From Candidatus Electronema halotolerans (lineage in GTDB: Bacteria > Desulfobacterota > Desulfobulbia > Desulfobulbales > Desulfobulbaceae), in NCBI GenBank assembly GCA_942493095.1, contig OW818675.1, positions 30,001 through 62,000 on the forward strand: DNA of 32,000 nt. The letters run 5' to 3'. Of the stretch, positions 404 to 25,659 are shown piece by piece. Within the stretch, counting starts at the first letter, position 1, and each line of letters starts with the position of its first letter. A model generated the notes under the pieces. That model did not search any database, was not told the DNA's origin, and saw only the letters and a program-made list of their open reading frames with translations. The position numbers were made by a program, and so were the translations under genes.

Positions 404-1858
404 ATGAAATCCATAAAACTGACAAAAAAAGCAAACGTATTGATAGCTATAGCATTTCTTTGCATCAGCTTGGATGGGAACCACGAGTTGTATGGTGAAA
501 ACATGTTGCTCATGATTCCGCCTATTTTGGCAAAGAAAAAGGCAGAGGGGCCGTTGAGCGGATATTGGTATTACACCCATAATGGGTATGAACTGAATAT
601 GTCTCAAAATGGAGATCAATTAACTGCAACTTATACAAATTTAAGCAGCGATGCGACGTTCAATATAGGCGACCAAGCATTTTACGGAACGTTGAAAGAT
701 AATAATATTACTGGAAAAATAAGAAGCAGATTTCCTATTGAAATTAAAGAGGTATGCCCAAATAATTGGGAGATATGGGCTGATGTCAATATGACTCTTT
801 CTGATGATCTTCATGACATTCAAGGGCAATATAAAACATATACAATATATTCATCAGATTGCCACGTAGAAGATGGAGATTGGCAGCCGATAAATGTTAC
901 AAGAACATTTACCCCTATTCTTAGTCCTGCAAAAGCTATTGAAGTAAAAATTACAGGAGAGCCATCTGCTGTGATTATTCGAACTAAAGATCAAAAAATT
1001 GGAGCAATACTTAATGGTGAGCAAGATTCATCAGGGAATTTAAAACAAGTAACTGATATCACATATTTCAATACTGAAAACAATAATATTAATGATGTTG
1101 TTCATCTTCATATTGATCCTATCGAAAAAACATTAAAATTTGTTTCTCCGGATGGAAAATTTGTTGTAATTGATAATTACAATCCTGTTTCAAAAACAGT
1201 AACCAAAAAAACTGGTGATATAGATACTGATGGGACAGAACATGTTACTTCAACGGAAGAAAACATTAAGGTTGATGATACATACAACGATATTGTAAAT
1301 CCTGATGATACAGTATCAAATATTTTTGAAGGTTTGAATAAAGTATGGAATGGCCTTCAATTATTAGGTAAAAAAATGTTTCCTCCATGGATTAGCTGGG
1401 TCTTTACAGTCAAACCAGATATATCTCAAGAAGACAGGTGCATAATTGACAATGTGTCTGGGCTTGTCAATCTACTTAATATGACTAAAAATATAACAGG
1501 ATGGATACACTCTATTTTTATCTTGAAAGAAACTCCTGTTTTGTCTTTCATCAAGACATTAGTTGAGAACGTTGAGAAATTATTTAGCTTTGGCCAAGAT
1601 GATGGCGCAGACAAAGTTTTTAAAACATGTGGAGCGGGTGTAGTATGTTGCTACCAACTTCAAGAGTTATGCAGAAAATATGGAGATGAAATTTACTCCA
1701 CACAATGCACTTGCACAATACTTACTTATGATGAAGTAAAAAAAATACAAATTATGCAAGAATGCGAGTCAATAGGAGGAGTGTCTGAATCTGTGGGCGA
1801 TTTTGTATGGTGCAAACAGTGGGATTTAGAGCCTCCATCCAAATGCGAAAATCCGTGA
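404..1858 (+). CDS. Hypothetical exported or membrane-anchored protein, 484 aa, Cys-rich C-terminus, strongly AT-rich gene
   Basis: Long ORF with RBS aggagaa 6 nt upstream of the ATG. It has an N-terminal hydrophobic helix (VLIAIAFLCISL) and 9 Cys in the last ~80 residues. I recognise no domain. Codon usage and GC differ clearly from the flanking genes. Confidence 0.6.
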   Translation: MKSIKLTKKANVLIAIAFLCISLDGNHELYGENMLLMIPPILAKKKAEGPLSGYWYYTHNGYELNMSQNGDQLTATYTNLSSDATFNIGDQAFYGTLKDNNITGKIRSRFPIEIKEVCPNNWEIWADVNMTLSDDLHDIQGQYKTYTIYSSDCHVEDGDWQPINVTRTFTPILSPAKAIEVKITGEPSAVIIRTKDQKIGAILNGEQDSSGNLKQVTDITYFNTENNNINDVVHLHIDPIEKTLKFVSPDGKFVVIDNYNPVSKTVTKKTGDIDTDGTEHVTSTEENIKVDDTYNDIVNPDDTVSNIFEGLNKVWNGLQLLGKKMFPPWISWVFTVKPDISQEDRCIIDNVSGLVNLLNMTKNITGWIHSIFILKETPVLSFIKTLVENVEKLFSFGQDDGADKVFKTCGAGVVCCYQLQELCRKYGDEIYSTQCTCTILTYDEVKKIQIMQECESIGGVSESVGDFVWCKQWDLEPPSKCENP

Positions 1859-4823: not shown

Positions 4824-5525
4824 ATGCAAAGCGGCAGTCCAAGCACCGTGCTTCCTGATTTTCCCCTCCCGCCTGATGGCGGCACCTTTTTTTATGAGCA
4901 GTCGCTGCGGCGGCAGGGCTTATGCTCTCCTGCCGGGCTGGACGAAGCCGGGCGCGGCCCGCTGGCCGGGCCAGTGGTCGCAGGCTGCGTCAACCTTCCT
5001 GCCAATTGTGATTTTTCCCGCTACCAAGACTCCAAGAAGCTGACTGCCGCCCGCCGGGAACAGCTCCATGCGGAGCTGCGCGCTTCTGATGCGGTCATCG
5101 GGGTCGGCCTTGCCACTGCTGAAGAAATCGACCAGATCAACATCCTTCAAGCATCACTGTTAGCCATGCAGCGGGCTGTGGCTGACTGCGCCGTGCCGCC
5201 GGATTTTCTCCTTGTTGACGGCAAGTTCAAAGTCCCGCTGGCCCTGCCTCAGCTCACCTTGATTAAAGGCGAGTCAAAAAGTGCCTCCATTGCCGCCGCC
5301 TCGATTGTCGCCAAGGTGACACGTGATCAGCTCATGGCCGAATATCACGCTCAATATCCGCAGTACAATTTTCTCCAGCACAAAGGCTATCCCACCAAGG
5401 CCCACCGGGCCGCCCTTGCCAAGCACGGCCCCTCGCCCATCCATCGTAAGACCTTCAAGGGAGTGCGGGAAATTTGCCAGCTGCTTGCTCCAACTACTAT
5501 TCACTTGGATTCGCCGCAAAAATAG
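4824..5525 (+). CDS. rnhB: Ribonuclease HII
   Basis: GLDEAGRGPLAGPVVAGCV (DEAGRG catalytic motif), LLVDGKF, SASIAAASIVAKVTRD and HRKTFKGV. I prefer the ATG at 4824; a TTG at 4791 is also in frame. Confidence 0.9.
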   Translation: MQSGSPSTVLPDFPLPPDGGTFFYEQSLRRQGLCSPAGLDEAGRGPLAGPVVAGCVNLPANCDFSRYQDSKKLTAARREQLHAELRASDAVIGVGLATAEEIDQINILQASLLAMQRAVADCAVPPDFLLVDGKFKVPLALPQLTLIKGESKSASIAAASIVAKVTRDQLMAEYHAQYPQYNFLQHKGYPTKAHRAALAKHGPSPIHRKTFKGVREICQLLAPTTIHLDSPQK

Positions 5526-6744
5526 TCAGCATCAGTTCCGCATCGTCAATCAGCTTGTACACAGGCCGTTTTCCTGAAAGTTTTTCGCTTTCAGACAGGA
5601 TGATCGGCACCCCTTCTCCCCGTTTGTCCATCAAAAAGCTGCGAGTACCAAGCGAATGCGAAGACGGCATGGGACAACGGGCAAGCAGGCTGGTCAGCAG
5701 TTCGTTGCGGGCCGACTGCCGGAGCGGAAGGCTTTCAACCGTCATGGTGTTGGGAATCGTGCCGGGTGAAAAAATTTCAAGGCGGTCAGCAAAGAGATGC
5801 AGCCGGATTTTCGAGCCTTGAATTGAGTAATCCCGGTGCGCCACGGCGTTGACCACAGCCTCAAAAACAGCTTGTATCGAATACTGCGGCATATCCTGCC
5901 GGGCCGGTGTCTTGACCGCATGAACCTGCATGTTCCGTTCAACAAAGCTGCATGCTTGCGCAATTTGTCTGTCTAACGGCCCGGTAATATCTTGCGCATC
6001 TGTCTGATAGGCCGCATTTCTTTCGCTGCCCCGATAGGCGACTGCCTGAATAAAGGCATTGACGATGAACTGATGCGGCTCTCTGCTTGCCATCAGAATG
6101 CCACTGACGCTTGGACAAGTTCCACCATCTTCATCTTGGGTGAGCAGCTTGAGTTTCCGCAGAAATTCCTCATCGCTGGCAGGGGACAAAGGCGTTTTGA
6201 ATTTTTTCCACAGGCTTTTGTCAAGGCAGTCTGGCGACGCTTTGCTGACCGCCTGCTCATCAAACCGAATTATTCTGCTTTGACTGCGCTGTTGAAACAG
6301 GCGGGCCAGAATATCTGGTGTCATCTGACGCTTCGAGCTGCCAATCCGGTGAAAGTATCCGCCAGGGCTTTGATGAACATAAAGACTTTTCGGAACATCA
6401 ATCCGTATGACAACGCGCTCGCTGCCGTCATCAGCAATAAGAGAGATTTTCCGAATCCGACAGAAGAGCGGCGGCGTGATCAGGTCATTGCAGATGTCTC
6501 GGAGCCATGTTTCGACGCTATCGAGCTTGTCCTCTGGAATACCGACGATGGATTTGAATGAATCGTCAACTCCCAGAACAACAACGCCGCTGGCGGCATT
6601 GGCCATTGCAGCCAGCTCATCCGCCATGCTGTTGCGATGCGGCTCGCTGACCTTTTTTCCTTTATAGCGCAGGTCTTTCAATTCAAGCGAGGAGTCCTCG
6701 CCCAGCCTGATCTGCCGCAGCAGTTCATCTGTGGTGTCAAACAT
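5497..6744 (-). CDS. AlbA_2 (Schlafen-like) domain protein with C-terminal HATPase_c_4 (RecG-C-like) domain, 415 aa
   Basis: The N-terminus, GEDSSLELKDLRY...ELAAMANAASGVVVLGVDD, is the typical AlbA_2 signature. The C-terminus, EAVVNAVAHRDYSIQGSKIRLHLFADRLEIFSPG, is the typical HATPase_c_4 signature. Its start ATG overlaps the stop of the upstream gene (ATGTTTGA). Confidence 0.75.
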   Translation of the reverse strand: MFDTTDELLRQIRLGEDSSLELKDLRYKGKKVSEPHRNSMADELAAMANAASGVVVLGVDDSFKSIVGIPEDKLDSVETWLRDICNDLITPPLFCRIRKISLIADDGSERVVIRIDVPKSLYVHQSPGGYFHRIGSSKRQMTPDILARLFQQRSQSRIIRFDEQAVSKASPDCLDKSLWKKFKTPLSPASDEEFLRKLKLLTQDEDGGTCPSVSGILMASREPHQFIVNAFIQAVAYRGSERNAAYQTDAQDITGPLDRQIAQACSFVERNMQVHAVKTPARQDMPQYSIQAVFEAVVNAVAHRDYSIQGSKIRLHLFADRLEIFSPGTIPNTMTVESLPLRQSARNELLTSLLARCPMPSSHSLGTRSFLMDKRGEGVPIILSESEKLSGKRPVYKLIDDAELMLTIFAANPSE

Positions 6745-9505
6745 GGCTGCTCTCTATCCTCATCCGTTTCCAGCGATTTTCAAAGGCTTTCCTTCCCCCT
6801 TCCATGATGTCGCAAATTGCCTTGCGGATATCCGGCTCATCCATCCCGCCCCGATGGTCAATCTGCACCTGGCCTTTGATGAATTGCAGCACATGGACCA
6901 ACTCGGCATCGCCGTTGACGACAATATTTGGATTGTGCGTGACAATAACAAGTTGCCGCCGCTCTTTGTTTGTATGAATCTGCGTGACAATAAGTTCAGA
7001 AATCAGCGCATTGTCTAAATCATCTTCCGGCTGATCAATAATCAGCGGTTCATTGCCGTGACTGAGCAGAAAGGCTAATATCGCCGATGCCTTTTGACCG
7101 GCAGAACCTTTTTCCAAATTATCAAATTTTTTGTCTCTGGAGTACTGCACCCGCAGCAGGTCTTTCGGCCACCATGCGTCAAGCTGATCAAAGATAGTCG
7201 GCTGATTTTGCAACAGCTCTTTAAGTCTGTTGCAAAATTTTCCATGACATGAGGAATCGTTACCTTCAGCAATGGCGCGAGTTCTGTCTTTGATTTCCTG
7301 AACAAGCTGAGGCAGCTCAGATTCTTGATGAGTTTCCTGCCAGTTTCGCAGGCTGTGCAGAATGCCGCCGTTTTCGTCGAGCACAGAACTGTCATGATTG
7401 TTGACAATATTAAGCAACGTCCGATATTCTTCTTCCAAGCTGCCAACGTCACCGAACTGAACCAAGTTTATGCGAACATACTTGTTGTTTCCAATAACTT
7501 TCTTGATAAATTCTTTTCTCCGTTCAAGCAAGTCATTCAGCATGGCAAAAAGAGAATTCCATTTTTCCTCGGCCTGTCGTTCAACTTGCTCTTTTTCTTT
7601 TTTTATGGAAACTAATTGATCCAGCTTGCGCTGTAAACTGTTCTTTTCCTGTACCCATTTGCCGTAATCAGACAGACTGCTGTTCTTTGCTTCATACTCT
7701 TTTCGCAGTTCTTCAAATGCAGCCATGCTTTCCTGCACAGCCTGCTGCCACTTGCTGGCAGCAATGGCATCCTGCCGTCTCTTTTTTAAGGAATCAACCT
7801 GTTCCGCCAGTTTGCCGAGGGTTTCGGCGATTGTTCCCAGTTCTTGCGCGGCTTGCTCATGAATGTCCCGCAACTCCGCAGCGCCAGCGGCCTGCTCATC
7901 AAACAAGTGCGCCGGAAAATCAGACATCTCCGCGATTTCTGCAATCTTTTTGATACTGGAGGAAAGATCATCAAAAACTTGGCCGCCCGGCAAACCATTT
8001 TTCTGCTGAATGCACTTCTGGTACTGCTTTAAGATTGCGCCATGCCCTTTTTCCTCATACTGCCGCAGGTCGCTTGTAACATCTTTCAGTTTTGCAAGCA
8101 ACTGCGGTTCTTCAGCAAGCTGCCGATCAAAAGCTCTCTTTTGTTCTCGAAGCTGAAGAAAATCACTTTTCACCCTCTCCCATTCAGATTCCCATACTGA
8201 ATGGTTTACGTCAGGTGTTCTGTCTATAATATCAAGCAGCCCATCTGAATTTGCTGCCAGCTCCTCAATTTGTTTCTGACTGTAAATGCTGAGAGGAAAA
8301 CGCTCAGATAGATCGCCCGGCTCAGTTTCCTGCCAACCGTCGTCGTTCTGCTCTTCTAAAACTGCCCCTTGTCCCTTAAATTGCCAACGCAGGCGGAAAT
8401 TCTTGCCGCGCCGATGCAGTTTAAGAAGAATTTCGGTGTCTTCCAGCATGACACCTTTCTTAGCCTGTAGGTCCTTGAACGTTTCTAACTTCTTTTTGAT
8501 CTCTGACTTATTGTCAAAATTCTGATCTCGCTGCGCAGCAATGCGGATGGATTCAAGAACCGTTGATTTTCCCGTTCCTCTGCTGCCAATGATGGCGTTG
8601 AAATACGGATGCAATTCCATGACAAATGGTTTATCTTTAACTCTCCCGCAGTGGCTCATATTTTTGATGGTCAGTTTTGACAAAAACAGATCAGGCAGGC
8701 AGTTCGGGTCTTCAATTTTATCTTCTTTCACATAATGCTGATGATCATCCACCATCAAAGCCAGCCGCAGACCTTCTATGTTTGGCTTGCTCATCTTCAA
8801 CCAGCTGAAGTGCTTTCCTATCTCATCAGGTTTGTGCGCATCGGAGCCACCCAGTTTGGCAAGGCGGTCAACCGCCTTTTGCAGCTCAGGTGTTGCTTGA
8901 GCGAAAAATTTTTCATAATTGCAGAACTCTGCGGCAACAATTGACTGCAAACTTTTTTCCAGTTCTTGAGTCAGCGAGCTTGCATTTTCCAACAAACCTT
9001 TTGCTTTTGCGCCGTCAATATGAGCAGCAATGGCGATTCCGCCTGCTTCTTTGATTTTTTTTACAGTTTTACAGAAGCCAATATGTGTTGCTGTCTGCTC
9101 GTCGTCACCAAATCCAGAAGTGATTTCGCATGACCCTAAAACACTTGTGATTGTGTCGCTGCCGCAACTCGGATCAAAAACTGCCAGCAGATGAACTCGG
9201 CTTCTGTTCCCGCCAACGGTGATTTCAACGCCGGGGAAGATTGTCAATTTCTGGAACCATTCCGGCCTGTTTTCCTGCTCCTGAAGTTCCTTGTTCTTTG
9301 CTTTCAAACGATCAATCCAGCCGCCTGAATTGTGGTCACTCAGCACCACGCAGTCAAGGCCAGCTTCCATAGCCTTCTGAAGCCATGCTTCCGGTTCAAT
9401 ATTTTTGAGAAAAAGATTTTCTCGGCCATAATCTTTCGATGCTGGCGAATGGGTATGGAAATCAATCTTCCACCATCTGCTACCCGGAAAAGTCTCGCTG
9501 CTCAT
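6737..9505 (-). CDS. PHP-domain phosphoesterase fused to a Rad50/SbcC/RecN-like ABC (SMC-type) ATPase, about 922 aa
   Basis: PHP motifs are DFHTHS, SDHN, GVE, AAHIDG and GSDAH. The ATPase part has Walker A GSRGTGKST, a long helical Glu/Lys/Gln-rich insert, ABC signature GSAGQKA, Walker B LIIDQPEDDLD and H-loop VTHNPN. The ATG at 9505 has GGGGAG 7 nt upstream; an alternative ATG is at 9523. Confidence 0.8.
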   Translation of the reverse strand: MSSETFPGSRWWKIDFHTHSPASKDYGRENLFLKNIEPEAWLQKAMEAGLDCVVLSDHNSGGWIDRLKAKNKELQEQENRPEWFQKLTIFPGVEITVGGNRSRVHLLAVFDPSCGSDTITSVLGSCEITSGFGDDEQTATHIGFCKTVKKIKEAGGIAIAAHIDGAKAKGLLENASSLTQELEKSLQSIVAAEFCNYEKFFAQATPELQKAVDRLAKLGGSDAHKPDEIGKHFSWLKMSKPNIEGLRLALMVDDHQHYVKEDKIEDPNCLPDLFLSKLTIKNMSHCGRVKDKPFVMELHPYFNAIIGSRGTGKSTVLESIRIAAQRDQNFDNKSEIKKKLETFKDLQAKKGVMLEDTEILLKLHRRGKNFRLRWQFKGQGAVLEEQNDDGWQETEPGDLSERFPLSIYSQKQIEELAANSDGLLDIIDRTPDVNHSVWESEWERVKSDFLQLREQKRAFDRQLAEEPQLLAKLKDVTSDLRQYEEKGHGAILKQYQKCIQQKNGLPGGQVFDDLSSSIKKIAEIAEMSDFPAHLFDEQAAGAAELRDIHEQAAQELGTIAETLGKLAEQVDSLKKRRQDAIAASKWQQAVQESMAAFEELRKEYEAKNSSLSDYGKWVQEKNSLQRKLDQLVSIKKEKEQVERQAEEKWNSLFAMLNDLLERRKEFIKKVIGNNKYVRINLVQFGDVGSLEEEYRTLLNIVNNHDSSVLDENGGILHSLRNWQETHQESELPQLVQEIKDRTRAIAEGNDSSCHGKFCNRLKELLQNQPTIFDQLDAWWPKDLLRVQYSRDKKFDNLEKGSAGQKASAILAFLLSHGNEPLIIDQPEDDLDNALISELIVTQIHTNKERRQLVIVTHNPNIVVNGDAELVHVLQFIKGQVQIDHRGGMDEPDIRKAICDIMEGGRKAFENRWKRMRIESSHV

Positions 9506-9556
9506 ACGGCAACTCCCCTGCATTGCTGAAAAGAGATAGATTTTGCTTGGCGCAGA

Positions 9557-9585
9557 ATTCTACCACCTCTGCCCGGCTGACGCAA
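9557..9585 (-). promoter_or_regulatory. Putative sigma70-type promoter for the PHP-ATPase/AlbA_2 cassette
   Basis: The minus strand reads TTGCGT, a 17-nt spacer, then TAGAAT preceded by TGG (extended -10 like). It lies between the dnaK terminator and the cassette start. Confidence 0.4.
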
Positions 9586-9599
9586 CACAGGGCAGAGAC

Positions 9600-9631
9600 A
9601 AAAAAAGGGAGAGCAGCTTGCCTGCCCTCCC
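9600..9631 (-). terminator. Rho-independent terminator of dnaK
   Basis: The minus strand reads GGGAGGGCAG-gcaag-CTGCTCTCCC followed by TTTTTTT. The stem is 10 bp with one mismatch, about 35 nt after the dnaK stop. Confidence 0.7.
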
Positions 9632-9665
9632 CTTGCTCATCCTTTGCTGCTGTGGAGTGAAAGCC

Positions 9666-11582
9666 TTACTTCACTTCCTCGAAGTCAGCATCCACAACAT
9701 CATCATCATCTTTCTTGCCGCCGCTGGAAGTTCCGCCTGTCGCGCCTGCCCCTGCATCAGCACCGGGCGCACCCTGCGAAGCCTGCGCATACATCAGCTC
9801 GGCCAGCTTGTGGGAAGCATTGGTCAGGGATTCAGTCGCGGCCTTAATTGCCTCCGCGTCATCACCCTCCAAGGCCTTTTTCACCTTCTCAATTTCCTGC
9901 TCCACCGTGCTCTTGGTCGCAGCATCAACCTTGTCGCCCAAGTCCTTGAGGCTCTTCTCAGCCATGTGAATCATCGAATCCGCATGGTTGCGGGCCTCGA
10001 CCAGCTCCTTGCGCTTCTTGTCCTCGTCGGCATGAAGTTCCGCATCCTTTTTCATCTGCTCAATCTCAGCCTCGCTCAGGCCGGAGGAAGCGGTGATACG
10101 GATCGACTGCTCCTTGCCTGTGCCCATGTCTTTGGCCGAGACATGAAGAATGCCGTTCGCATCCAAGTCAAAGGTGACTTCGATCTGCGGCACGCCACGC
10201 GGCGCAGGCGGAATCTCGGATAGCTCAAAGCGGCCAATGGTCTTGTTGTTTGAGGCCATCTCGCGTTCGCCTTGGAGAACGTGGATGGAGACCGCAGGCT
10301 GATTGTCCGCAGCTGTGGAGAAGATTTGGCTTTTCTTGGTCGGCACTGTGGTGTTCTTCTCAATCAGCTTGGTCATGACCCCGCCCAAGGTCTCAATGCC
10401 CAGAGACAGCGGCGTGACATCGAGCAGAAGCACATCCTTGACATCGCCCTTGAGCACGCCGCCCTGAATTGCCGCGCCCACGGCCACGACCTCGTCCGGG
10501 TTCACGCCTTTGTGCGGATCTTTGCCGAAGATTTGTTTGACTTTTTCCTGCACCTTGGGCATCCGGGTCATGCCGCCGACCAGAATCACCTCGTCGATCT
10601 TGGACGGGTCAAGTCCGGCATCTTTGAGCGCAGTGCGGCACGGGCCTTCGCAGCGGTCGATCAGGTCAGCAACCAAGGCTTCCAGTTTGGCGCGGGAGAG
10701 CTTGATGTTCAGATGCTTTGGCCCAGTCGCATCCGCAGTGATGAAGGGCAGATTGATGTCGGTCTCCTTGGACGAGGACAGCTCTTTCTTGGCCTTTTCC
10801 GCCTCTTCCTTGAGCCGCTGGAGAGCCATCTTGTCATTGCGCAGATCAATGCCGTTCTCGCGCTTGAACTCGTCCGCCAGCCAGTTGACAATGCGCATGT
10901 CAAAGTCTTCGCCGCCAAGGAAGGTGTCGCCGTTGGTGGATTTGACCTCAAACACGCCGTCGCCGATCTCCAGAATGGACACGTCAAAGGTGCCGCCGCC
11001 CAAGTCAAAGACTGCCACTTTCTCCTCGCCCTTCTTGTCAAGACCATAAGCAAGAGCGGCGGCGGTCGGCTCATTGATGATCCGCTGCACATTCAGACCA
11101 GCAATCTTGCCTGCGTCCTTGGTGGCCTGCCGCTGCGCGTCGTTGAAATAGGCTGGCACGGTCACGACCGCATCAGTGACAGTCTCGCCAAGATATTCCT
11201 CAGCCGTCTTCTTCATCTTGCCAAGAATCATGGCGGAAATCTCAGCGGCAGAATAGCTCTTGCCCTCCGCCTCCACCACGGCATCGCCGTTCGAGGCTTG
11301 GGTGATCGTGAACGGACTCAGCTCAATCGATTTCTTGACTTCCGGGTCAGTGAACTTGCGCCCGATCAGCCGCTTGATGGCGAACAGGGTCTTGGTTGGA
11401 TTAGTGACTGCTTGCCGCTTGGCAACCTGCCCGACCAGCCGCTCGCCGCTGTCGGAAAAAGCGACAATGGACGGGGTGGTGCGGTTGCCTTCGCTGTTTT
11501 CGATAACCTTGGGGTCGCCCCCTTCCATGATGGCCACGCACGAATTGGTGGTGCCAAGGTCAATGCCGATGATCTTACCCAT
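9666..11582 (-). CDS. dnaK: Molecular chaperone DnaK (Hsp70)
   Basis: [17 protein letters not shown]...[10 protein letters not shown]...[11 protein letters not shown] and a C-terminal EEVK tail. RBS AAGGAG lies upstream. Confidence 0.98.
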
Positions 11583-11688
11583 GATATATCTCCTTAAATT
11601 GGTTGTCGTGCATAATGATTCAATGCTGCGCCGCCGTTATAAACAATGCGCATAAAAACGGCCTTGTCAAGAGGATTTGCTGCGCAGT

Positions 11689-12309
11689 TTATTCTTTTTT
11701 GGCCGGGCCGCTTGACACCACCACTTGCGCATGACGGAGCATCCGGTCTTTGAACAGATAGCCCTTGGCAAACTCGCGCAGCACATGGTTAGCCGGAATC
11801 TCTTCGCTGACCTCCATAGTCAGGGCATCCATCTGCTCGGCATCAAAAGGCTGGCCCACAGAATCCAAGGCAGTCACTTCAAAACGTTCCAACATGGTTT
11901 CCAAGCCTTTCTTGGTCAGCTCGACACCAGTCATCAAGGCGGCCAGCTTCTGCTCCGGGTCGCCGCCCTCCACACTGCCCTGCTCCAAGGCGCGGTCAAG
12001 ATTGTCCGCAGTGGTCAGCAGCTCGCGGAGAATGTTCTCGCCCGCATACTTGCGCAGCTTCTCCTGTTCGCGCTCCATGCGCTTCTTGGAGTTCTCCGCC
12101 TCAGCGGCAAAACGGACCGTCTGATCCAGCTTGGCGCGCAACTCCTCCACTTCCTGCGTCAACGCCTCAATCTCCGACTTCTGCTCCTCAGCCGCCTCTT
12201 CCGGCTCCAACTGCGCTACAGGGGCAGCCGCAGCTTCTGCGGCCTGCTGCTCCTGCACATCCTCTGCTGCCATCTCGTTCTCATTCTCAAGAATTTTTTC
12301 TTCAGCCAC
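11689..12309 (-). CDS. grpE: Nucleotide exchange factor GrpE
   Basis: Acidic N-terminus, coiled coil, and a C-terminal GrpE signature (FDAEQMDALTMEV...VLREFAKGYLFKDRMLRHAQVVVS). The GTG at 12309 follows GAGGGAGAAG; the longer ORF to 12387 is unlikely. Confidence 0.9.
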   Translation of the reverse strand: MAEEKILENENEMAAEDVQEQQAAEAAAAPVAQLEPEEAAEEQKSEIEALTQEVEELRAKLDQTVRFAAEAENSKKRMEREQEKLRKYAGENILRELLTTADNLDRALEQGSVEGGDPEQKLAALMTGVELTKKGLETMLERFEVTALDSVGQPFDAEQMDALTMEVSEEIPANHVLREFAKGYLFKDRMLRHAQVVVSSGPAKKE

Positions 12310-12371
12310 GTATCTTCTCCCTCGTCTGAGCGGTTTCCGTACAATGAACAAAAACTGAATCTGTGGGGGCA

Positions 12372-12400
12372 ACAGTAAGTATGTCACCTGCCGGTGTCAA
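12372..12400 (-). promoter_or_regulatory. Putative sigma70-like promoter upstream of grpE
   Basis: The minus strand reads TTGACA, a 17-nt spacer, then TACTGT. No CIRCE inverted repeat was seen. Confidence 0.35.
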
Positions 12401-18456: not shown

Positions 18457-18848
18457 TTGCTTCCTGTTTTGGCAATTCAGGCTTGGCCCATCATAGCAAA
18501 AAAGCCGCTTGCAGGAAACAGGTTTTCTGCTAAGGTAAGCACCTCGGCTCTGCTGCGCCGCCGGAGTGCTTTGTCAGTGTTCTGGCGACTCAACCAAGCC
18601 GGAATGTTATTTTTTCGTTGAACTGGATTCCTGTCAATGGAAAAGAATGGAAAATTCTGTCTGCCTTCTTGAAAATCTGATGTGCAGATAACTTTTGCGT
18701 GACACCTATGATGGACAAACGAATCCCGCGTTGCAGACTGACTGCCGCCAAGACCTTGTCTGAAGCAAAAAGAAAGCATTTCCAGCAGTCAGTTCCTCCA
18801 GAAAGATGTCAAAAAGGCAGCGATGCGCGGAACGGTGCAGGCAACATA

Positions 18849-20054
18849 ATGACTGCGGACAAGGCATTGGCGCAGGTTCGGAAGCAGGAGGCAGCGGAAC
18901 GGCATGAGGCGAGGCAGATTGCAGCCAAAAAATCACCTCCAAAGGAGGCAAGATGTCCAAAATGCGGCCATGTCCAGAAATTATCCGAAGAATGTGAAAG
19001 CTGCGGCTTGATATTTTCTAAATATTATTTGGCGCGGGCCAGAAAGCGCGAAGCAGCGAAACAGGAGGCTGCAAGGCAGGCTGAAGATGCCGAGAGTGAG
19101 GAGAATAAAGAAAATGATAGGAATGTCTCATGGAAGCGCATTTTGCTTGTTGTTGCCATCATAGTCATTGGTAACAGGATTTTTGCAGAAATGTATGTTT
19201 ATTATAAAAATAAAGCAATAGAAAGAGAGTACGAGAACAGCCAAGGAGGGCCAATCTCTTTGACGCTGGCAAAATTCAACGATCCGAAAAACTTCCTTGA
19301 AAAAGCTCGGAATGCAACAGTTTTTATTGAGACATCTTGGGGGTCTGGTTCTGGATTTTTCATAAACGATAAATGCAGCATTATTACCAACAGACATGTC
19401 GTGGAGCCTGACGAGGAGGAAAAAGAGAATCTCCGTAAAGAAGTTAATGCGTTGCGATACAAGGTGAGGATAGATCGATACGATGTTTCGAGATTTGAAA
19501 GCAATGTCAGGAGGAGTTTCGGCACTGCGGACTTTGAAGAAAAGAGAGATGCCCTTGATATAATGAAAAGAGTTCTGAGCGAGAACGAGGAACTGCTCAA
19601 GGAGGCCGAAGAAAGGTACGAGAACATGAGAACAAATGCTCATTTCGCCAAGGTTTTTTTGATAAATGGACAAAAGTATTTTGTTCATTCCCGTTCTTTC
19701 AGCAAGGAATATGATCTCGCTCTGCTGTCAATAATTGGAATTGGTTCTCCTTTTATCACACCAAGAATAAAAAAGAAAGATCGTGGCGACAAGGTGTTCA
19801 CTATCGGCAACCCTGTGGGACTGCGGCATACGGTCACGTCAGGCATCATATCAGGATACCAGGAATATGAAGGAAGAAAATATATTCAAACTGATGCGCC
19901 GATAAATCCCGGCAACAGCGGCGGGCCGCTTATCGATGAATCTGGATATGTCATTGGCGTGAACACAATGGTTATTGACAAAACAGAAGGAATAGGCTTT
20001 GCCATTCCCATAGAAGAAGTGCTCAACCAGTTCCCCTCTGTAAAAATGCCGTAA
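18849..20054 (+). CDS. Zinc-ribbon / single-TM / trypsin-like (S1C, HtrA-type, no PDZ) serine protease
   Basis: [18 protein letters not shown] zinc ribbon, TM helix [11 protein letters not shown], and protease motifs GSGFFI...TNRHVV (His), YDLALL (Asp), [14 protein letters not shown] (Ser). The start is uncertain: ATG at 18849 or earlier at 18699. Confidence 0.7.
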
Positions 20055-22346: not shown

Positions 22347-23294
22347 TCAGGCGGCAAACAGCTCCTCCAGCGAGGCGGCTGTGAAGACTTTGCTCATCCA
22401 CTGCCGGAGCTGCTCCACAGAGGCCAGCCGCACCCGCGTGCGCAATTCCTCCGGCAGCGGCCCGAATTTTTCCTCGGCAAGCAGGAGCAGGCTTTCCGCC
22501 ATGCCTGCGGTTTTGCCTTCAGCAACGCCCTCCGCACGGCCTTTTGCCAGACCTTTCTCCAAGCCTTTTTCCATGCCCTTCTCCTCAGCGGAGGCGATCT
22601 TGCTCTCCACATCCATCAGGGCGCGCATCCGGGTCTCATAGACTAACCGCTCCTCCTCGTTGAACATCCGGTCCACCGCCTCCATAGCCTTGAGAATGCT
22701 GCGGTCAGCGGCCATTGTCTCAGGCATTTCGTTCCGCCGCAGCTCGTGCGCCTTGGTGAGAAAGGCGGCCCAGCGGTCGAGCGGCTTGACTAAGTCGGCA
22801 AAGTCTTTCCTGAACTTGCGCAGCTCGATGTAATGCAGCTCAAAGATGTCATGCAGCCCGTCGTCCTTGCAGCTGGCCGTGTTGATGATTTTGTACAGGC
22901 TGTGAAATTCCTCATCGCCCGGCACGAAGTTGAAGTCGAGGATGCTGATGCAGACGGTCTTTTGCAGGGTTTTGTACATCTGCCCCTCGGTGAGCTGCTC
23001 TCTGACCAATTTGGCCCAGTAATAGATGGCCCGCTTGTCGAAATACAAATCCTCGCTGATCTGCATCTCGACATTGAACCAGCGGCCCTTCCGGTCAACA
23101 GCCTTGATGTCCAAGATGGACATCTTGCCCGCCTGATAGTCGGCCAAGCTGTAGGGATTGCGCAGGGTCACGTCCGCGACCTGATCCTCCTCAGAAACCA
23201 CCGCGTTGATCAGGGAGATGAGCAGATCCTTGTTCTCTTCGCTGCCGAAGAGCTTTTTAAAGGCGAAATCAACTCTGGGGTTTATCCGGCACAT
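22347..23294 (-). CDS. Rpn-family (YhgA-like, PD-(D/E)XK) recombination-promoting nuclease / putative transposase
   Basis: INPRVDFAFKKLFGSEENKDLLISLINAV...SILDIKAVDRKGRWFNVEMQ...YFDKRAIYYWAKL, plus a C-terminal DUF4351-like tail (EEKFGPLPEELRTRV...VEQLRQW). The ATG at 23294 follows GGAGGC. Confidence 0.8.
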   Translation of the reverse strand: MCRINPRVDFAFKKLFGSEENKDLLISLINAVVSEEDQVADVTLRNPYSLADYQAGKMSILDIKAVDRKGRWFNVEMQISEDLYFDKRAIYYWAKLVREQLTEGQMYKTLQKTVCISILDFNFVPGDEEFHSLYKIINTASCKDDGLHDIFELHYIELRKFRKDFADLVKPLDRWAAFLTKAHELRRNEMPETMAADRSILKAMEAVDRMFNEEERLVYETRMRALMDVESKIASAEEKGMEKGLEKGLAKGRAEGVAEGKTAGMAESLLLLAEEKFGPLPEELRTRVRLASVEQLRQWMSKVFTAASLEELFAA

Positions 23295-23608
23295 TTTTTT
23301 TGCCTCCGCTTGCTGAAGCCTGTTTTTCATGGAAAACTGCGTGCAGCAGTATAGGCGCAAAGCCGGACAATCTCAAGGGGGAAACGTCGGAATTCAGTGA
23401 ACCAGACGTTCTAGTTTAGACTTGCTTTATTGCGGCGCAACGCATTATAATATATGCCATCCTGTGTTTTTGAGACTCAAAGCCAAAGAGTGCCCCTTCT
23501 GTGCCGTGGCAGCATGCTGAAACGGGACTTTTGTTCAACCAAAGTGAAGTTCATGCGCCGCAGAAAGGGAATTCCAGCGAAAAAAAACAGCGGGCGGAAA
23601 AGAAAATC

Positions 23609-23637
23609 TTGACAGCCGCGCTGAAATCGGGCATATT
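23609..23637 (+). promoter_or_regulatory. Putative promoter of tRNA-Leu
   Basis: TTGACA, a 17-nt spacer, then CATATT. The -10 element ends 11 nt before the mature tRNA 5' end. Confidence 0.45.
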
Positions 23638-23648
23638 TGTCCTGCCGT

Positions 23649-23735
23649 GCCGAAGTGGCGGAATTGGTAGACGCGCTAGGTTCAGGGTCTAGTGAGCGTA
23701 CGCTTGTGGGAGTTCGACTCTCCCCTTCGGCACCA
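23649..23735 (+). tRNA. tRNA-Leu (anticodon CAG), 87 nt, encoded CCA
   Basis: Cloverleaf by hand: acceptor GCCGAAG/CTTCGGC, anticodon arm CTAGG-TTCAGGG-TCTAG, long variable arm, T arm GGGAG-TTCGACT-CTCCC. Near-identical in layout to E. coli tRNA-Leu(CAG). Confidence 0.95.
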
Positions 23736-23750
23736 TTTAAGTCAGATATG

Positions 23751-23795
23751 CAGGGCTTTGATATTGCTAGTGAATATCAAAGCCCTGTTTTTATT
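23751..23795 (+). terminator. Rho-independent terminator after tRNA-Leu
   Basis: CAGGGCTTTGATATT-gctagtg-AATATCAAAGCCCTG is a perfect 15-bp stem, followed by TTTTTATTT. Confidence 0.85.
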
Positions 23796-23812
23796 TCCAG
23801 CGGCTTTTCCTG

Positions 23813-23822
23813 CCTCTCCTTC
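23813..23822. repeat. Left copy of the 10-bp target-site duplication (CCTCTCCTTC) flanking the IS
   Basis: An identical 10-mer directly abuts the outer ends of both inverted repeats. It extends to 11 bp if the shared G is counted. Confidence 0.8.
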
Positions 23823-23841
23823 CTTACCATCCATCACTTTT
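23823..23841. repeat. IS left terminal inverted repeat
   Basis: CTTACCATCCATCACTTTT. Confidence 0.85.
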
Positions 23842-23910
23842 CTTGACAGAGCTTGAACGCCGGAGTAAAAAGATTGAAAAAACAATTCGTTTATTCAAAC
23901 TCTGTGAAAT

Positions 23911-25085: not shown

Positions 25086-25086
25086 G
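25068..25086. repeat. IS right terminal inverted repeat
   Basis: AAAAGTGATGGATGGTAAG is the exact reverse complement of IRL. Confidence 0.85.
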
Positions 25087-25096
25087 CCTCTCCTTC
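25087..25096. repeat. Right copy of the 10-bp target-site duplication (CCTCTCCTTC)
   Basis: Identical to 23813-23822. Confidence 0.8.
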
Positions 25097-25137
25097 TCGA
25101 AGATCGATCCTTTCAGGTTTGTAACGTATCTGTCTTT

Positions 25138-25659
25138 CTACAGCTCCAGCTCACAGACTTCAGGAAGGTGTCTGTACTGCTGGGCATAGTCCAGTCCGTA
25201 GCCGACCAGGAAGCCCTTGTCGATCTGAAAGCCGACATATTCCAGCTCCACCTCTGTTTTCCGCCGTTCCCGCTTGTCGATCAAGGTGCAGATGCTGACC
25301 GAGGCAGTCTGATGCCGGGCGGCAAAATACTGGCGCAGCCAAGCTGTGGTGATGCCGCTGTCAACAATGTCCTCGACCAGCAAAATGTGCTTGCCTGCCA
25401 GCTCCAGTTCCGGCCCTTTGCGCAGGGTGACCATGCCGCTGCTTTCCGCCTTATTGCCATAGCTGGCCACGCGGATGAAATCTATTTCCACCTCCAGCTC
25501 CACAGTCCGGGCCAGATCAGCCAGAAAAACAAACGCGCCATTGAGGATGCCGACCAGCACCAGCTTTTTTCCCTGATAGTCCGCGCTGATCTGGCGGCCA
25601 AGCTCCATGACCCGGTCCGCAATTTCAGCACGGCTTAGAATAGTTGCCGCAATGCGCAT
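25138..25659 (-). CDS. hpt: Hypoxanthine(-guanine) phosphoribosyltransferase
   Basis: ILLVEDIVDSGITTAWL (PRPP-binding motif), VLVGILNGAFVFLADLAR, and GFLVGYGLDYAQQYRHLP. The ATG at 25659 follows AGGAGG. Confidence 0.92.
   Translation of the reverse strand: MRIAATILSRAEIADRVMELGRQISADYQGKKLVLVGILNGAFVFLADLARTVELEVEIDFIRVASYGNKAESSGMVTLRKGPELELAGKHILLVEDIVDSGITTAWLRQYFAARHQTASVSICTLIDKRERRKTEVELEYVGFQIDKGFLVGYGLDYAQQYRHLPEVCELEL

What the first reader, a model, noticed from the sequence alone, without database searches (positions are those of the whole stretch)
5497..9585. Candidate novel two-gene defence-like cassette: PHP-Rad50-like ATPase coupled to an AlbA_2/Schlafen-like HATPase_c_4 protein
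Directly visible in the sequence:
- Two minus-strand genes overlap by 8 nt (ATGTTTGA), which indicates translational coupling.
- They sit behind their own TTGCGT-N17-TGgTAGAAT promoter, placed immediately after the dnaK terminator.
- GC is visibly lower (around 45-50% by eye) than in the flanking housekeeping genes rnhB and dnaK.

Gene 1 fuses a PHP phosphoesterase (all His/Asp metal-ligand motifs present) to an SMC/Rad50-type ABC ATPase with a long helical insert. Gene 2 combines an AlbA_2 (Schlafen-type) nucleic-acid-binding domain with a HATPase_c_4 domain.

Established context: PHP domains act as nucleases or phosphoesterases. Rad50/SbcC/OLD-like ATPases are recurrent sensors in anti-phage systems. 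As far as I recall, a single-gene PHP-ATPase system (Ppl, Gao et al. 2020) exists.

Inference: I know of no described system that pairs such a protein in an operon with an AlbA_2/HATPase_c_4 partner. This may therefore be an undescribed two-component variant in which one protein senses foreign nucleic acid and the PHP nuclease, or a Schlafen-like RNase activity, executes.
Basis: partly seen in the sequence, partly recalled or inferred. Interest (0 to 1): 0.85.

Follow-up and report, generated by a model that had tools for sequence, protein, structure and literature searches.

The report
Ppl-like nuclease paired with Schlafen-ATPase (trlFG)
This is a real, horizontally acquired two-gene cassette pairing a Ppl-like DNA nuclease/ATPase with a Schlafen-type RNase/ATPase; the pairing is widespread in bacteria and was named trlF-trlG in Photorhabdus in 2020, but no paper I could search treats it as a phage-defence module.

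Summary
Two minus-strand genes (6737-9505 and 5497-6744) overlap by 8 nt. They have lower GC than their flanks and lie between dnaK and rnhB in a Desulfobulbaceae genome.

- **Gene 1** is a PHP nuclease fused to an SMC/Rad50-like ABC ATPase. It matches the Ppl model full-length and passes NCBIfam's TrlF cutoff, but not the Ppl equivalog cutoff.
- **Gene 2** is a Schlafen RNase domain (E-x4-E-x-K intact) plus a GHKL ATPase domain.
- **Pairing from gene 1:** 60 of 77 informative species genomes have a gene 2 homologue starting -17 to +7 nt after gene 1. The two proteins co-evolve (r = 0.79). No third gene is conserved.
- **Pairing from gene 2:** only 26 of 73 close gene 2 relatives have the partner. 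Solo TrlF/Ppl genes are also common.
- **Context:** neighbours are often BREX, Hma or RM genes.

The claim of "no described system" is wrong. The pair is trlF-trlG of the Photorhabdus temperature restriction locus (2020), where trlG mutations relieve growth arrest. That paper never mentions phage. None of the papers I could search or read (the Ppl mechanism paper was not available) link TRL to Ppl or Schlafen defence.

Verdict: a new member of a known kind, and most likely a two-effector defence module.

The parts
9557..9585 (-). Sigma-70-like promoter candidate: -35 TTGCGT (9585-9580), 17-nt spacer, extended -10 TGgTAGAAT (9565-9557)
   Evidence: The sequence was read. It matches 8 of 12 consensus positions and was not called by the consensus scan. 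The hexamers are retained in L001/L002. Its function is inferred only.
9513..9518 (-). Shine-Dalgarno-like GGGGAG, 7 nt upstream of the likely true start codon of gene 1 (ATG 9505-9503)
   Evidence: In L001/L002 the upstream ATG is out of frame, so the ATG equivalent to 9505 is the conserved start.
6737..9505 (-). Gene 1 (trlF-like; Ppl-like): a PHP nuclease fused to an SMC/Rad50-like ABC ATPase, 922 aa from the ATG at 9505 (928 aa from 9523)
   Evidence: PADLOC Ppl 1.2e-145. NCBIfam TrlF 601 bits against a cutoff of 350; Ppl 613 bits against a cutoff of 1000. Catalytic motifs are conserved. AlphaFold model mean pLDDT 74.
8753..9478 (-). PHP (TrpH/RNase AM-like) metal-dependent phosphoesterase domain of gene 1 (residues about 16-257)
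   Evidence: H23, H25, D63, H64, E100, H111, H168, D228 and H230 are conserved in at least 56 of 57 homologues. Foldseek hits 3O0F/3E0F and RNase AM 9ETK.
8219..8689 (-). ABC ATPase head N-lobe with Walker A GSRGTGKST (residues 313-321)
   Evidence: Pfam AAA_23/SMC_N. K319 is conserved in 57 of 57. See also the model.
7496..8203 (-). Long helical (coiled-coil-like) insert of gene 1 (residues about 441-676); the least conserved part of the protein
   Evidence: AlphaFold helices 441-676 have pLDDT 80-96. Conservation is 0.25. Foldseek matches SMC, JetC, MukB and Rad50.
6743..7477 (-). ABC ATPase head C-lobe: signature SAGQK (807-811), Walker B IIDQPEDDLD (828-837), H-loop THN (862-864)
   Evidence: Pfam AAA_21 covers 747-868. 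The motifs are conserved in 57 of 57.
6737..6744 (-). 8-nt start/stop overlap ATGTTTGA coupling gene 1 to gene 2
   Evidence: The same -8 overlap type occurs in 20 of 58 homologous pairs, and all junctions fall between -17 and +7 nt.
5497..6744 (-). Gene 2 (trlG-like; 'Schlatpase'): a Schlafen/AlbA_2 RNase domain plus a GHKL-type ATPase domain, 415 aa, with no C-terminal HTH
   Evidence: Pfam hits. PDB sequence hits 3LMM and 5YD0. Foldseek matches SLFN11/12/13/14/5 and the SAMD9 tRNase domain. It is 25% identical (E 2e-29) to the TrlG-like protein of a Y. ruckeri plasmid.
6319..6699 (-). Schlafen (SLFN_AlbA_2) nuclease domain with E16-x4-E21-x-K23 and D61
   Evidence: E16 57/57, E21 56/57, K23 57/57, D61 57/57. 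EDSSLELK aligns to the catalytic segment ESASIEFK of Schlafen 5YD0. Model pLDDT is 80-92 in this region.
5536..5889 (-). GHKL (HATPase_c_4) ATP-binding domain with N-box E295-x3-N299...HRDY and SPG / GEG motifs
   Evidence: Pfam 1.1e-18. E295, N299, H303, R304, D305 and Y306 are conserved in 57 of 57. The structural model is poor here (pLDDT below 50).
5476..5496 (.). Distal edge of the cassette. Homology with relative L001, which lacks rnhB at this position, ends at 5476, so the last ~50 nt of the window's rnhB ORF (which ends at 5525) are cassette-derived
   Evidence: blastn of the window against L001. The RNase_HII Pfam match ends at residue 223 of 244.

Best explanation
The cassette is a trlF-trlG-type two-gene module without trlR, acquired horizontally by a Desulfobulbaceae chromosome. 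It is most likely an anti-phage / anti-mobile-element system with two effectors.

**Shown by the sequence and comparisons**
- Both genes are intact, and all four catalytic modules are conserved: PHP nuclease, ABC ATPase, Schlafen RNase and GHKL ATPase.
- The genes are translationally coupled. The arrangement gene 1 then gene 2, with a -17 to +7 nt junction, is kept in most related genomes across many phyla.
- The two proteins co-evolve.
- The unit moves as a block into varied contexts, often inside BREX, Hma or RM islands.

**Inferred from homologues studied by others**
- TrlF probably works like E. coli Ppl. Ppl is a 3'-5' ssDNA exonuclease held off by bound NTPs and switched on by 3'-OH DNA ends together with NTP depletion.
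- TrlG probably works like other prokaryotic Schlafen-GHKL modules. There, ATP binding drives oligomerisation into an active tRNA-cleaving nuclease that arrests translation and growth.
- Photorhabdus genetics fits this. All growth-arrest suppressors map to trlG and none to the larger trlF. TrlG is therefore the growth-arresting effector, and TrlF is not needed to activate it.

**My own inference**
- The two proteins form a complex.
- TrlF attacks invader DNA and also restrains or licenses the TrlG tRNase.
- TrlG then provides an abortive-infection back-up.
For: **Family assignment.** PADLOC Ppl 1.2e-145; NCBIfam TrlF 601 bits against a cutoff of 350. Gene 2 carries SLFN_AlbA_2 + HATPase_c_4.

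**Adjacency and coupling.**
- Gene 2 homologue immediately downstream in 60 of 77 informative species genomes, with gene 1 identity from 63% down to 30%.
- Junctions of -17 to +7 nt in all 58 scored pairs.
- Co-evolution: Pearson 0.79, Mantel 0 of 999 permutations.
- No third conserved gene.
- Catalytic residues conserved in at least 56 of 57 pairs.
- The pairing persists in very distant pairs on Y. ruckeri, P. savastanoi and B. thailandensis plasmids.

**Defence context.** PglX, PglZ, HmaB, HmaC/DUF499, DrmMI, mad2 and type II/IIG RM genes lie among the immediate neighbours.

**Foreign origin.** Low GC, and absence beside rnhB in the closest relatives.

**Structure.** Foldseek hits to Schlafen/SAMD9 tRNases for gene 2 and to SMC/Rad50/JetC plus PHP phosphoesterases for gene 1.

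**Literature.**
- Ppl mechanism (PMC12904381; PMC13434339 ref 51).
- pSlfn defence and the Ex4(E/D)xK motif (PMC13056530).
- GHKL-driven tetramerisation and tRNA cleavage (bioRxiv 10.64898/2026.05.29.728809).
- TRL genetics (PMC7554251).
Against: - No experiment addresses this cassette or any trlFG pair against phage. The TRL paper reports a temperature phenotype only.
- The partnership is not obligate. 47 of 73 close gene 2 relatives lack an upstream TrlF.
- Linkage changes state about 22 times on the gene 2 tree and about 15 times on the gene 1 tree. The gene 1 figure is hardly fewer than chance.
- E. coli Ppl and most plasmid and viral TrlF/Ppl genes are solo.
- HisKinase-type pSlfn constructs tested by others gave no defence in their phage panel.
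- A physical TrlF-TrlG interaction is untested.
- The window's own flanks are housekeeping genes, not a defence island.
- The C-terminal half of the gene 2 model is unreliable.
Confidence: 0.55

Rival explanations
1. Two independent single-gene defence systems share a transcript. A Ppl-like nuclease and a stand-alone Schlafen-ATPase each sense and act alone, with no physical or regulatory coupling, and are kept adjacent only by defence-island dynamics.
For: - Both occur solo. Ppl proper works as a single gene.
- 17 of 77 related genomes, and 27 of 28 viral contigs, have TrlF without the partner.
- 47 of 73 close gene 2 relatives lack TrlF.
- Linkage was gained or lost many times.
- Photorhabdus suppressors hit only trlG.
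Against: - Order, strand and a -17 to +7 nt junction are kept in all 58 scored pairs, down to 30% gene 1 identity, and even in the 24-25%-identity plasmid pairs.
- The identity matrices are strongly correlated (r = 0.79, Mantel 0 of 999).
- Flanking genes are otherwise unconserved. Defence islands normally shuffle neighbours at such distances.
Confidence: 0.25
2. The cassette is a physiological growth-control or stress module, as originally proposed for TRL. It arrests growth in response to temperature or other stress and has no role in immunity.
For: - The only genetics on the operon shows TRL transcription induced by a 28 to 36 C shift and trlG-dependent growth arrest.
- In the window and in L001 the cassette lies directly downstream of the heat-shock operon grpE-dnaK, on the same strand.
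Against: - Distribution is patchy and horizontal: 21 of 46 Photorhabdus genomes and 12 of 1218 V. cholerae genomes.
- The pair is carried on plasmids.
- Homologous pairs are embedded in BREX, Hma and RM loci.
- Gene 1 is a full-length homologue of a validated anti-phage protein.
- The dnaK context is seen only in the window and L001, not in the 80 other genomes.
- Temperature-triggered arrest could be auto-immunity of a defence system.
Confidence: 0.12
3. Gene 2 is a DNA-binding transcriptional regulator of gene 1, following the historical annotation of AlbA_2/HATPase_c_4 proteins as 'transcriptional regulator' or 'RecG-like'.
For: Database names for homologues include 'predicted HTH transcriptional regulator' and 'transcriptional regulator'.
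Against: - HATPase_c_4 ends at residue 403 of 415, which leaves no room for the C-terminal HTH found in many relatives.
- The nuclease motif E-x4-E-x-K plus D61, and the ATP-binding N-box, are conserved in 56-57 of 57.
- The fold matches Schlafen/SAMD9 RNases.
- In Photorhabdus, TrlG itself is the growth-arresting factor, and a separate small TrlR is the putative regulator.
Confidence: 0.03

Closest known systems
TRL operon (trlR-trlF-trlG) of Photorhabdus laumondii DJC (Hapeshi et al. 2020, Front Microbiol 11:548800; PMC7554251)
   Same: - Same two-gene core in the same order: a PHP/'histidinol phosphatase'-ATPase (TrlF) followed, tightly linked, by an AlbA_2 + HATPase_c_4 protein (TrlG).
- Gene 1 passes NCBIfam's TrlF-family cutoff.
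- Distribution is patchy and horizontal, including plasmids.
   Different: - There is no trlR homologue in the window or in any of the about 57 paired genome loci.
- Sequence identity to the enterobacterial and Pseudomonas TRL-type pairs is only about 24-27%.
- Those TrlG proteins carry E-x4-Q-x-K, whereas this clade keeps E-x4-E-x-K.
- The Photorhabdus sequences themselves could not be fetched.
- The TRL paper proposes temperature-dependent growth control, not defence.
Ppl, the single-gene anti-phage protein of E. coli (Gao et al. 2020; mechanism in Xu et al., Mol Cell 2026)
   Same: - PHP nuclease + ABC/SMC-like ATPase in one polypeptide of about 900 aa.
- Full-length HMM match (PADLOC 1.2e-145; 30% identity to plasmid-borne Ppl).
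- All PHP and ATPase motifs are conserved.
   Different: - It scores below NCBIfam's Ppl equivalog cutoff (613 against 1000 bits).
- It belongs to the sister TrlF family.
- It carries a conserved, translationally coupled Schlafen-ATPase partner that Ppl proper lacks.
Prokaryotic Schlafen nucleases / 'Schlatpase' module (pSlfn-HisKinase class, PMC13056530; SLFN-pAgo RzAgo, bioRxiv 10.64898/2026.05.29.728809)
   Same: - PF04326 Schlafen domain with Ex4(E/D)xK, plus a PF13749 GHKL ATPase with the E...N ATP/Mg site.
- Association with defence islands.
- Fold match to SLFN/SAMD9 tRNases.
   Different: - Here the module is a stand-alone 415-aa protein. It is not fused to a pAgo, Ig-like, DUF262 or Csx15 sensor.
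- Any sensor would be encoded by a separate upstream gene (TrlF).
- The papers I read mention no PHP/Ppl partner.
ABC-ATPase + nuclease defence systems (OLD, Gabija GajA, PARIS AriA, Lamassu LmuB, Wadjet JetC)
   Same: An SMC/Rad50-like ABC ATPase head with a helical insert is coupled to a nuclease. There are weak PADLOC hits to AriA, LmuB, GajA and PtuA, and Foldseek hits to JetC and LmuB.
   Different: - The nuclease is a PHP domain, not Toprim, DUF4435 or Cap4.
- There are no LmuA/LmuC, JetABD, GajB or AriB partners.
- The similarities are confined to the ATPase head.

Membership tests
TrlF family AAA-like ATPase (NCBIfam NF045780) | Whole-protein score at or above the curated cutoff (350 bits), with full-length coverage | tested here: met
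   601.1 bits, covering residues 14-921 against model positions 2-943 of 944.
Ppl anti-phage protein (NCBIfam NF042955 equivalog; PADLOC Ppl) | Single polypeptide with an N-terminal PHP phosphoesterase and a C-terminal ABC/SMC-like ATPase, aligned full-length to the Ppl model | tested here: met
   PADLOC PDLC02208 at 1.2e-145, covering residues 14-921 against model positions 4-892 of 894. Motifs are conserved. See also the model.
Ppl anti-phage protein (NCBIfam NF042955 equivalog; PADLOC Ppl) | Score at or above the curated equivalog cutoff (1000 bits) | tested here: not met
   613.2 bits, below 1000. Identity to plasmid-borne Ppl is only about 30%.
Ppl anti-phage protein (NCBIfam NF042955 equivalog; PADLOC Ppl) | Single-gene system with no conserved partner | tested here: not met
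   A Schlafen-ATPase gene overlaps the stop codon here and in 60 of 77 related genomes. Ppl proper on E. coli plasmids is solo.
Ppl anti-phage protein (NCBIfam NF042955 equivalog; PADLOC Ppl) | NTP-inhibited 3'-5' ssDNA exonuclease activated by 3'-OH overhangs; phage protection | not testable with these tools
   Known only from the literature on E. coli Ppl.
TRL operon (Photorhabdus trlR-trlF-trlG) | trlF followed on the same strand by a tightly linked trlG encoding AlbA_2 + HATPase_c_4 | tested here: met
   The architecture is described in PMC7554251. The homologous pair on a Y. ruckeri plasmid has the same layout.
TRL operon (Photorhabdus trlR-trlF-trlG) | Small (about 79 aa) putative regulator trlR upstream | tested here: not met
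   tblastn with the 79-aa ORF of the Y. ruckeri plasmid finds nothing in the window or in any paired locus. No small upstream ORF family is conserved. Only about 140 nt separate dnaK from gene 1.
TRL operon (Photorhabdus trlR-trlF-trlG) | Direct sequence relatedness to P. laumondii TrlF/TrlG | tested here: inconclusive
   The Photorhabdus sequences could not be fetched. I tested against pairs on a Y. ruckeri plasmid and P. savastanoi pPsv48B. The TRL paper reports TRL homologues on Y. ruckeri plasmid pYR3 and TrlG in P. syringae-group strains. Gene 1 is 24% identical (E 4e-35) and gene 2 is 25-27% identical (E about 1e-28 to 1e-30).
TRL operon (Photorhabdus trlR-trlF-trlG) | Temperature-induced, trlG-dependent growth arrest | not testable with these tools
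   Phenotype reported in PMC7554251.
Prokaryotic Schlafen nuclease (pSlfn) | PF04326 Schlafen/AlbA_2 domain with the catalytic Ex4(E/D)xK motif | tested here: met
   PF04326 at 3.8e-15. E16, E21 and K23 are conserved in 56-57 of 57. The motif aligns to the catalytic segment of 5YD0. Foldseek hits SLFN5/11/12/13/14 and SAMD9.
Prokaryotic Schlafen nuclease (pSlfn) | tRNA cleavage and phage protection | not testable with these tools
   Shown for other architectures only.
'Schlatpase' supradomain (SLFN + GHKL ATPase) | PF04326 followed by PF13749, with the GHKL Mg/ATP residues (E...N) present | tested here: met
   PF13749 at 1.1e-18. E295-x3-N299 and HRDY are conserved in 57 of 57. These correspond to E314/N318 of RzAgo as described.
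Lamassu / Wadjet / Gabija-type SMC- or OLD-like systems | Cognate partner genes (LmuA/C, JetABD, GajB) and family-specific nuclease domains | tested here: not met
   There are only partial ATPase-head hits (LmuB 4e-11, GajA 1.5e-7, AriA 2e-11). No such partners are present in the window.

The most novel reading that the evidence does not exclude
trlFG may be a bona fide two-effector immune system and the commonest, possibly ancestral, form of 'Ppl-type' defence outside enterobacterial plasmids.

- A DNA-end / NTP-sensing PHP-SMC-like ATPase (TrlF) physically restrains or licenses a Schlafen-GHKL tRNase (TrlG). This couples invader-DNA degradation to abortive translation shut-off.
- The two arms would be gated by opposite nucleotide states. 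NTPs inhibit Ppl-type nucleases, whereas ATP assembles the Schlafen-GHKL nuclease.
- The 'temperature restriction' of Photorhabdus would then be auto-immunity of this defence system.
Probability: 0.4. Interest if true: 0.7.

Novelty: new member of a known kind. Interest (0 to 1): 0.5.

Why it matters
Three separate literatures appear to describe parts of one module.
- Ppl is treated as a single-gene anti-phage nuclease.
- Bacterial Schlafen-ATPases are treated as tRNase effectors.
- The Photorhabdus temperature restriction locus has an unexplained growth-arrest phenotype.

If trlFG is a coupled system, three things follow.
1. Tools that call 'Ppl' as a single gene miss a conserved partner in most of the related genomes sampled here.
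2. The commonest and still uncharacterised class of bacterial Schlafen proteins gains a candidate sensor/partner.
3. Temperature restriction in an insect pathogen gets a testable mechanistic explanation: auto-activation of a defence tRNase.

Culturable carriers exist for experiments: B. thailandensis, the P. syringae group, Y. ruckeri and E. coli plasmids.

For this particular window, the finding is one more divergent, trlR-less member of the family.

Tried and rejected
1. **Site-specific insertion into the dnaK 3' end.** This was suggested by a 59-aa HSP70 fragment after the cassette in L001. The fragment is an internal dnaK piece, 96% identical to L001's own dnaK. It is more likely an assembly or rearrangement scar. 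The window has no such remnant.
2. **A third conserved gene.** None was found; the largest flank family occurs in 7 of 80 loci. No trlR was found.
3. **Gene 2's subfamily is exclusive to TrlF.** Rejected by the reverse test (26 linked against 47 unlinked) and by the tree.
4. **Paired and solo TrlF form separate clades.** Rejected: 15 state changes against 18.1 under shuffling.
5. **Phage or prophage carriage of the pair.** INPHARED has only distant hits. In IMG/VR, 27 of 28 genes are solo.
6. **A solved Ppl/TrlF structure.** None was found by sequence: phmmer at 1e-3 gave nothing, and the profile search gave only weak SMC-head hits.
7. **A full structural model of gene 2.** The alignment allowed was shallow (73-93% identity), so the C-terminal half is unreliable. 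Only the Schlafen domain is used as evidence.
8. **Origin of the name 'TrlF'.** The first searches were swamped by the TRLFS spectroscopy acronym. It was found only.
9. **The Ppl mechanism paper (Xu et al. 2026).** It is not held, so I cannot exclude that it mentions partnered homologues.
10. **Other defence genes in the window.** None was recognised.

Full report
**1. What is in the sequence**

- Two minus-strand ORFs occupy 6737-9523 (928 aa) and 5497-6744 (415 aa). They overlap by the 8 nt ATGTTTGA.
- Upstream, the dnaK stop codon is followed by a strong terminator-like hairpin (9634-9604). After it comes TTGCGT-N17-TGgTAGAAT (9585-9557).
- That element matches only 8 of 12 consensus positions, and the consensus scan did not call it. 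I treat it as a plausible, unproven promoter.
- Alignment with two 88%-identical relatives shows that the first ATG is out of frame there. The conserved start is therefore the ATG at 9505, preceded by GGGGAG.
- Gene 1 is 46.3% GC and gene 2 is 52.3% GC. The flanking housekeeping genes are 55-60% (GC3 49-57% against 61-73%).

**2. Identity of the two proteins**

*Gene 1*
- It matches the PADLOC Ppl model over its whole length (1.2e-145).
- In NCBIfam it scores 613 bits on the Ppl equivalog model, below the cutoff of 1000. It scores 601 bits on 'TrlF family AAA-like ATPase', above the cutoff of 350.
- The only PHP-clan Pfam model reported at E <= 0.1 is PHP_C, and that is sub-threshold. However, the PHP metal ligands, Walker A/B, the signature motif and the H-loop are conserved in at least 56 of 57 homologues.
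- An AlphaFold model (mean pLDDT 74) shows a PHP-type alpha/beta domain, a split ABC head and a confident helical insert at 441-676.
- Foldseek finds JetC, MukB, RecN, Rad50 and SMC heads for the ATPase. It finds TrpH-like phosphoesterases and RNase AM for the PHP part.

*Gene 2*
- It carries SLFN_AlbA_2 (residues 16-142) and HATPase_c_4 (residues 310-403).
- Its N-terminus, EDSSLELK...GVDD, aligns to the catalytic segment of a mammalian Schlafen structure.
- E16, E21, K23 and D61, and the GHKL N-box E295-x3-N299-HRDY, are conserved in 56-57 of 57 homologues.
- The confident N-terminal part of its model matches Schlafen 5/11/12/13/14 and the SAMD9 tRNase domain. The C-terminal half of the model is unreliable.
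- The protein ends 12 residues after the GHKL domain, so it lacks the C-terminal HTH that many relatives have.

**3. Is the pairing real?**

- I aligned 20 gene 1 homologues and fetched the 80 most similar loci from one-genome-per-species GTDB contigs. Identity ranged from 63% down to 30%, across more than 15 phyla.
- In 60 of the 77 loci with enough downstream sequence, a gene 2 homologue (45-75% identity) lies immediately downstream on the same strand.
- In all 58 scorable pairs the junction is -17 to +7 nt. There are 20 with the same -8 overlap type, 14 at +1, 6 at -11 and 6 at +2.
- Pairwise identity matrices of the two proteins correlate at r = 0.79 (Mantel 0 of 999 permutations). Gene 2 is the more conserved protein in 99.5% of comparisons.
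- No third gene is conserved; the largest flank family occurs in 7 of 80 loci.
- The same arrangement recurs in very distant pairs (24-27% identity) on plasmids of Yersinia ruckeri and Pseudomonas savastanoi. It also occurs in a closer pair (35% and 59% identity) on a Burkholderia thailandensis plasmid.

**4. The partnership is not obligate**

- Among the 80 closest gene 2 relatives in JGI metagenomes (42-75% identity), 26 have a TrlF-like gene upstream and 47 do not. Seven were uninformative.
- The unlinked ones sit beside SNF2 helicases, N6/N4 methylases, a second Schlafen-ATPase, other nuclease/ATPase genes or housekeeping genes.
- On a neighbour-joining tree of 126 gene 2 proteins, linkage is clustered but labile: 22 state changes against 36.1 under shuffling.
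- On the gene 1 tree, solo genes are scattered almost at random: 15 changes against 18.1.
- E. coli Ppl and the enterobacterial and Pseudomonas aeruginosa plasmid TrlF genes are solo. So are 27 of 28 homologues on IMG/VR viral contigs.
- Solo TrlF genes are often embedded in RM operons, for example HsdS-TrlF-HsdR.
- The 78% pairing figure applies to the 80 genomes most similar to this cassette, not to the whole Ppl/TrlF family. That family has about 1000 clusters at 50% identity with E <= 1e-30.

**5. Genomic context**

- Immediate neighbours of the paired cassettes include PglX, PglZ (BREX), HmaB, HmaC/DUF499, DUF1156 (Hma), DrmMI, mad2 and type II/IIG RM genes. Housekeeping genes are mixed in.
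- In the window itself the flanks are housekeeping. On one side is ffh...rimM-trmD-rplS-rnhB, and on the other grpE-dnaK.
- The host is a Desulfobulbaceae bacterium. The best named RnhB hits are Electrothrix, Electronema and Desulfobulbus.
- Relatives with 88% and 79% identical RnhB keep the upstream synteny but have different genes after rnhB. They have no cassette and no dnaK there.
- The 88%-identical relative L001 keeps grpE-dnaK-cassette but diverges 21 nt after the gene 2 stop.
- The cassette is therefore an accessory insertion linked to dnaK in this lineage. The last ~50 nt of the window's rnhB ORF are cassette-derived.

**6. Comparison with the literature**

- **Ppl.** It is described as a single-gene system. 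It is a 3'-5' ssDNA exonuclease whose PHP and NTPase domains are inhibited by NTPs, and it is activated by 3'-OH ends together with nucleotide depletion (review PMC12904381). The primary paper, Xu et al., Mol Cell 2026, is cited but is not held.
- **Schlafen proteins.** Prokaryotic Schlafen proteins with the Ex4(E/D)xK motif defend against phage by cleaving tRNA. The HisKinase/GHKL fusion is the commonest architecture. The two Enterobacterales examples tested gave no defence in that panel (PMC13056530).
- **SLFN-pAgo.** In that protein the SLFN+GHKL 'Schlatpase' binds ATP through E314/N318. Binding drives tetramerisation into an active tRNase (bioRxiv 10.64898/2026.05.29.728809).
- None of these papers mentions a PHP/Ppl partner.
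- **TRL.** The name TrlF comes from Hapeshi et al. 2020 (PMC7554251).
  - Photorhabdus laumondii carries trlR (79 aa), trlF ('histidinol phosphatase') and trlG (AlbA_2 + HATPase_c_4, misannotated as recG).
  - Spontaneous mutants able to grow at 36 C carry about 16 distinct trlG lesions and none in the larger trlF.
  - Deletion of the operon is viable, and the promoter is induced by temperature upshift.
  - The paper reports homologues in V. anguillarum, on Y. ruckeri plasmid pYR3 and in the P. syringae group.
  - It does not mention phage. No other held paper mentions TrlG.

**7. Most likely mechanism**

- *Shown:* an intact, translationally coupled, co-evolving pair with four conserved catalytic modules. 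It moves as a block and is often found in defence islands.
- *Inferred from homologues:* TrlF acts as a Ppl-like DNA-end / NTP-sensing exonuclease. TrlG acts as an ATP-gated Schlafen tRNase that arrests growth.
- *From Photorhabdus genetics:* TrlG is the growth-arresting effector and does not need TrlF to fire. If trlF loss-of-function mutations also gave thermotolerance, about 70% of mutants would be expected in trlF by target size. None of about 16 distinct mutations is in trlF.
- *My inference:* TrlF is either an independent DNA-targeting arm or a restraining/licensing partner of TrlG within a complex. The tight coupling and co-evolution favour a complex. The many independent gains and losses show that each gene can stand alone.
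- Confidence is 0.55 that this is a coupled defence module. It is about 0.9 that it is a trlFG-type homologue.

**8. Rival explanations**

- Independent neighbouring defence genes: 0.25.
- A physiological temperature/stress growth-control module, as originally proposed: 0.12. The position directly downstream of grpE-dnaK is a curious parallel, but it is confined to this lineage.
- Gene 2 as a transcriptional regulator: 0.03.

**9. Novelty and verdict**

The cassette is a real, conserved, defence-like two-gene unit, but the pairing already has a name (trlF-trlG).
- This instance is a divergent, trlR-less member with a canonical Schlafen active site.
- What appears new, within the literature I could search, is the recognition that TRL equals a Ppl-like nuclease plus a Schlafen-ATPase. 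Also new is that most of the sampled relatives of this 'Ppl' hit carry the partner.
- Interest is moderate (0.5).

Noticed in passing
window 404-1858 (+): A 484-aa ORF lies in a strikingly low-GC patch (31-39%) just upstream of the rimM-trmD-rplS-rnhB cluster. It has no Pfam or PADLOC hit and looks like another foreign insertion.
   Followed up: partly
window 18699-20054 (+): A 451-aa trypsin-like peptidase lies in a 42-44% GC patch. PADLOC matches only the protease part of the single-gene 'RT-Protease_XI' model (8e-18). No reverse transcriptase domain was seen.
   Followed up: partly
window 22347-25638: A PDDEXK_2 (Rpn-family recombination-promoting nuclease) gene lies at 22347-23360(-). It is followed by tRNA-Leu(CAG) at 23649-23735 and then a DDE transposase at 23911-25638. 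This is a small mobile-element hotspot beside a tRNA gene.
   Followed up: no
window 5476-5525: The rnhB ORF converges on gene 2 and overlaps its 3' end by 29 nt. The RNase HII domain ends at residue 223 of 244. The last ~50 nt are shared with relative L001, which has no rnhB at this position. The RnhB C-terminal tail is therefore encoded by cassette-derived DNA.
   Followed up: yes
L001 12170-12331: Directly after the cassette in the 88%-identical relative there is a 160-nt internal fragment of dnaK, 96% identical to that contig's own dnaK. It is either a rearrangement scar or a metagenome assembly chimera.
   Followed up: partly
window 9505-12387; L001 5310-10890: The cassette lies directly downstream of the heat-shock operon grpE-dnaK on the same strand, separated only by the dnaK terminator. 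This is curious because the homologous TRL operon of Photorhabdus is induced by temperature upshift. The context is not seen in the other 80 genomes.
   Followed up: partly
L174 7971-9119; L176 6004-7161: The TrlG-like proteins of Y. ruckeri and P. savastanoi plasmids carry E-x4-Q-x-K (GEDSRHQFK / GEDSRQQFK) where the window's clade has the canonical Schlafen E-x4-E-x-K. The TRL paper reports TRL homologues in these taxa. The enterobacterial/Pseudomonas branch may therefore have altered catalysis.
   Followed up: no
L099 3814-6239; also L098, L150, L042: Some close gene 2 relatives occur as tandem pairs of Schlafen-ATPase genes instead of being paired with TrlF.
   Followed up: no
L047, L069, L070, L089, L111, L118, L126: In several genomes the trlFG pair is embedded inside an Hma-type system, between a DUF1156 methylase and a DUF499/HmaC ATPase. 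It behaves like an 'embedded' accessory module of a larger defence system.
   Followed up: partly
L013 7543-8781: In a Legionellales genome a 55%-identical TrlF lacks the Schlafen partner. Instead it overlaps by 4 nt (gap -4) an SbcD/Mre11-like nuclease gene (Metallophos + SbcD_C), which may be an alternative partner.
   Followed up: no
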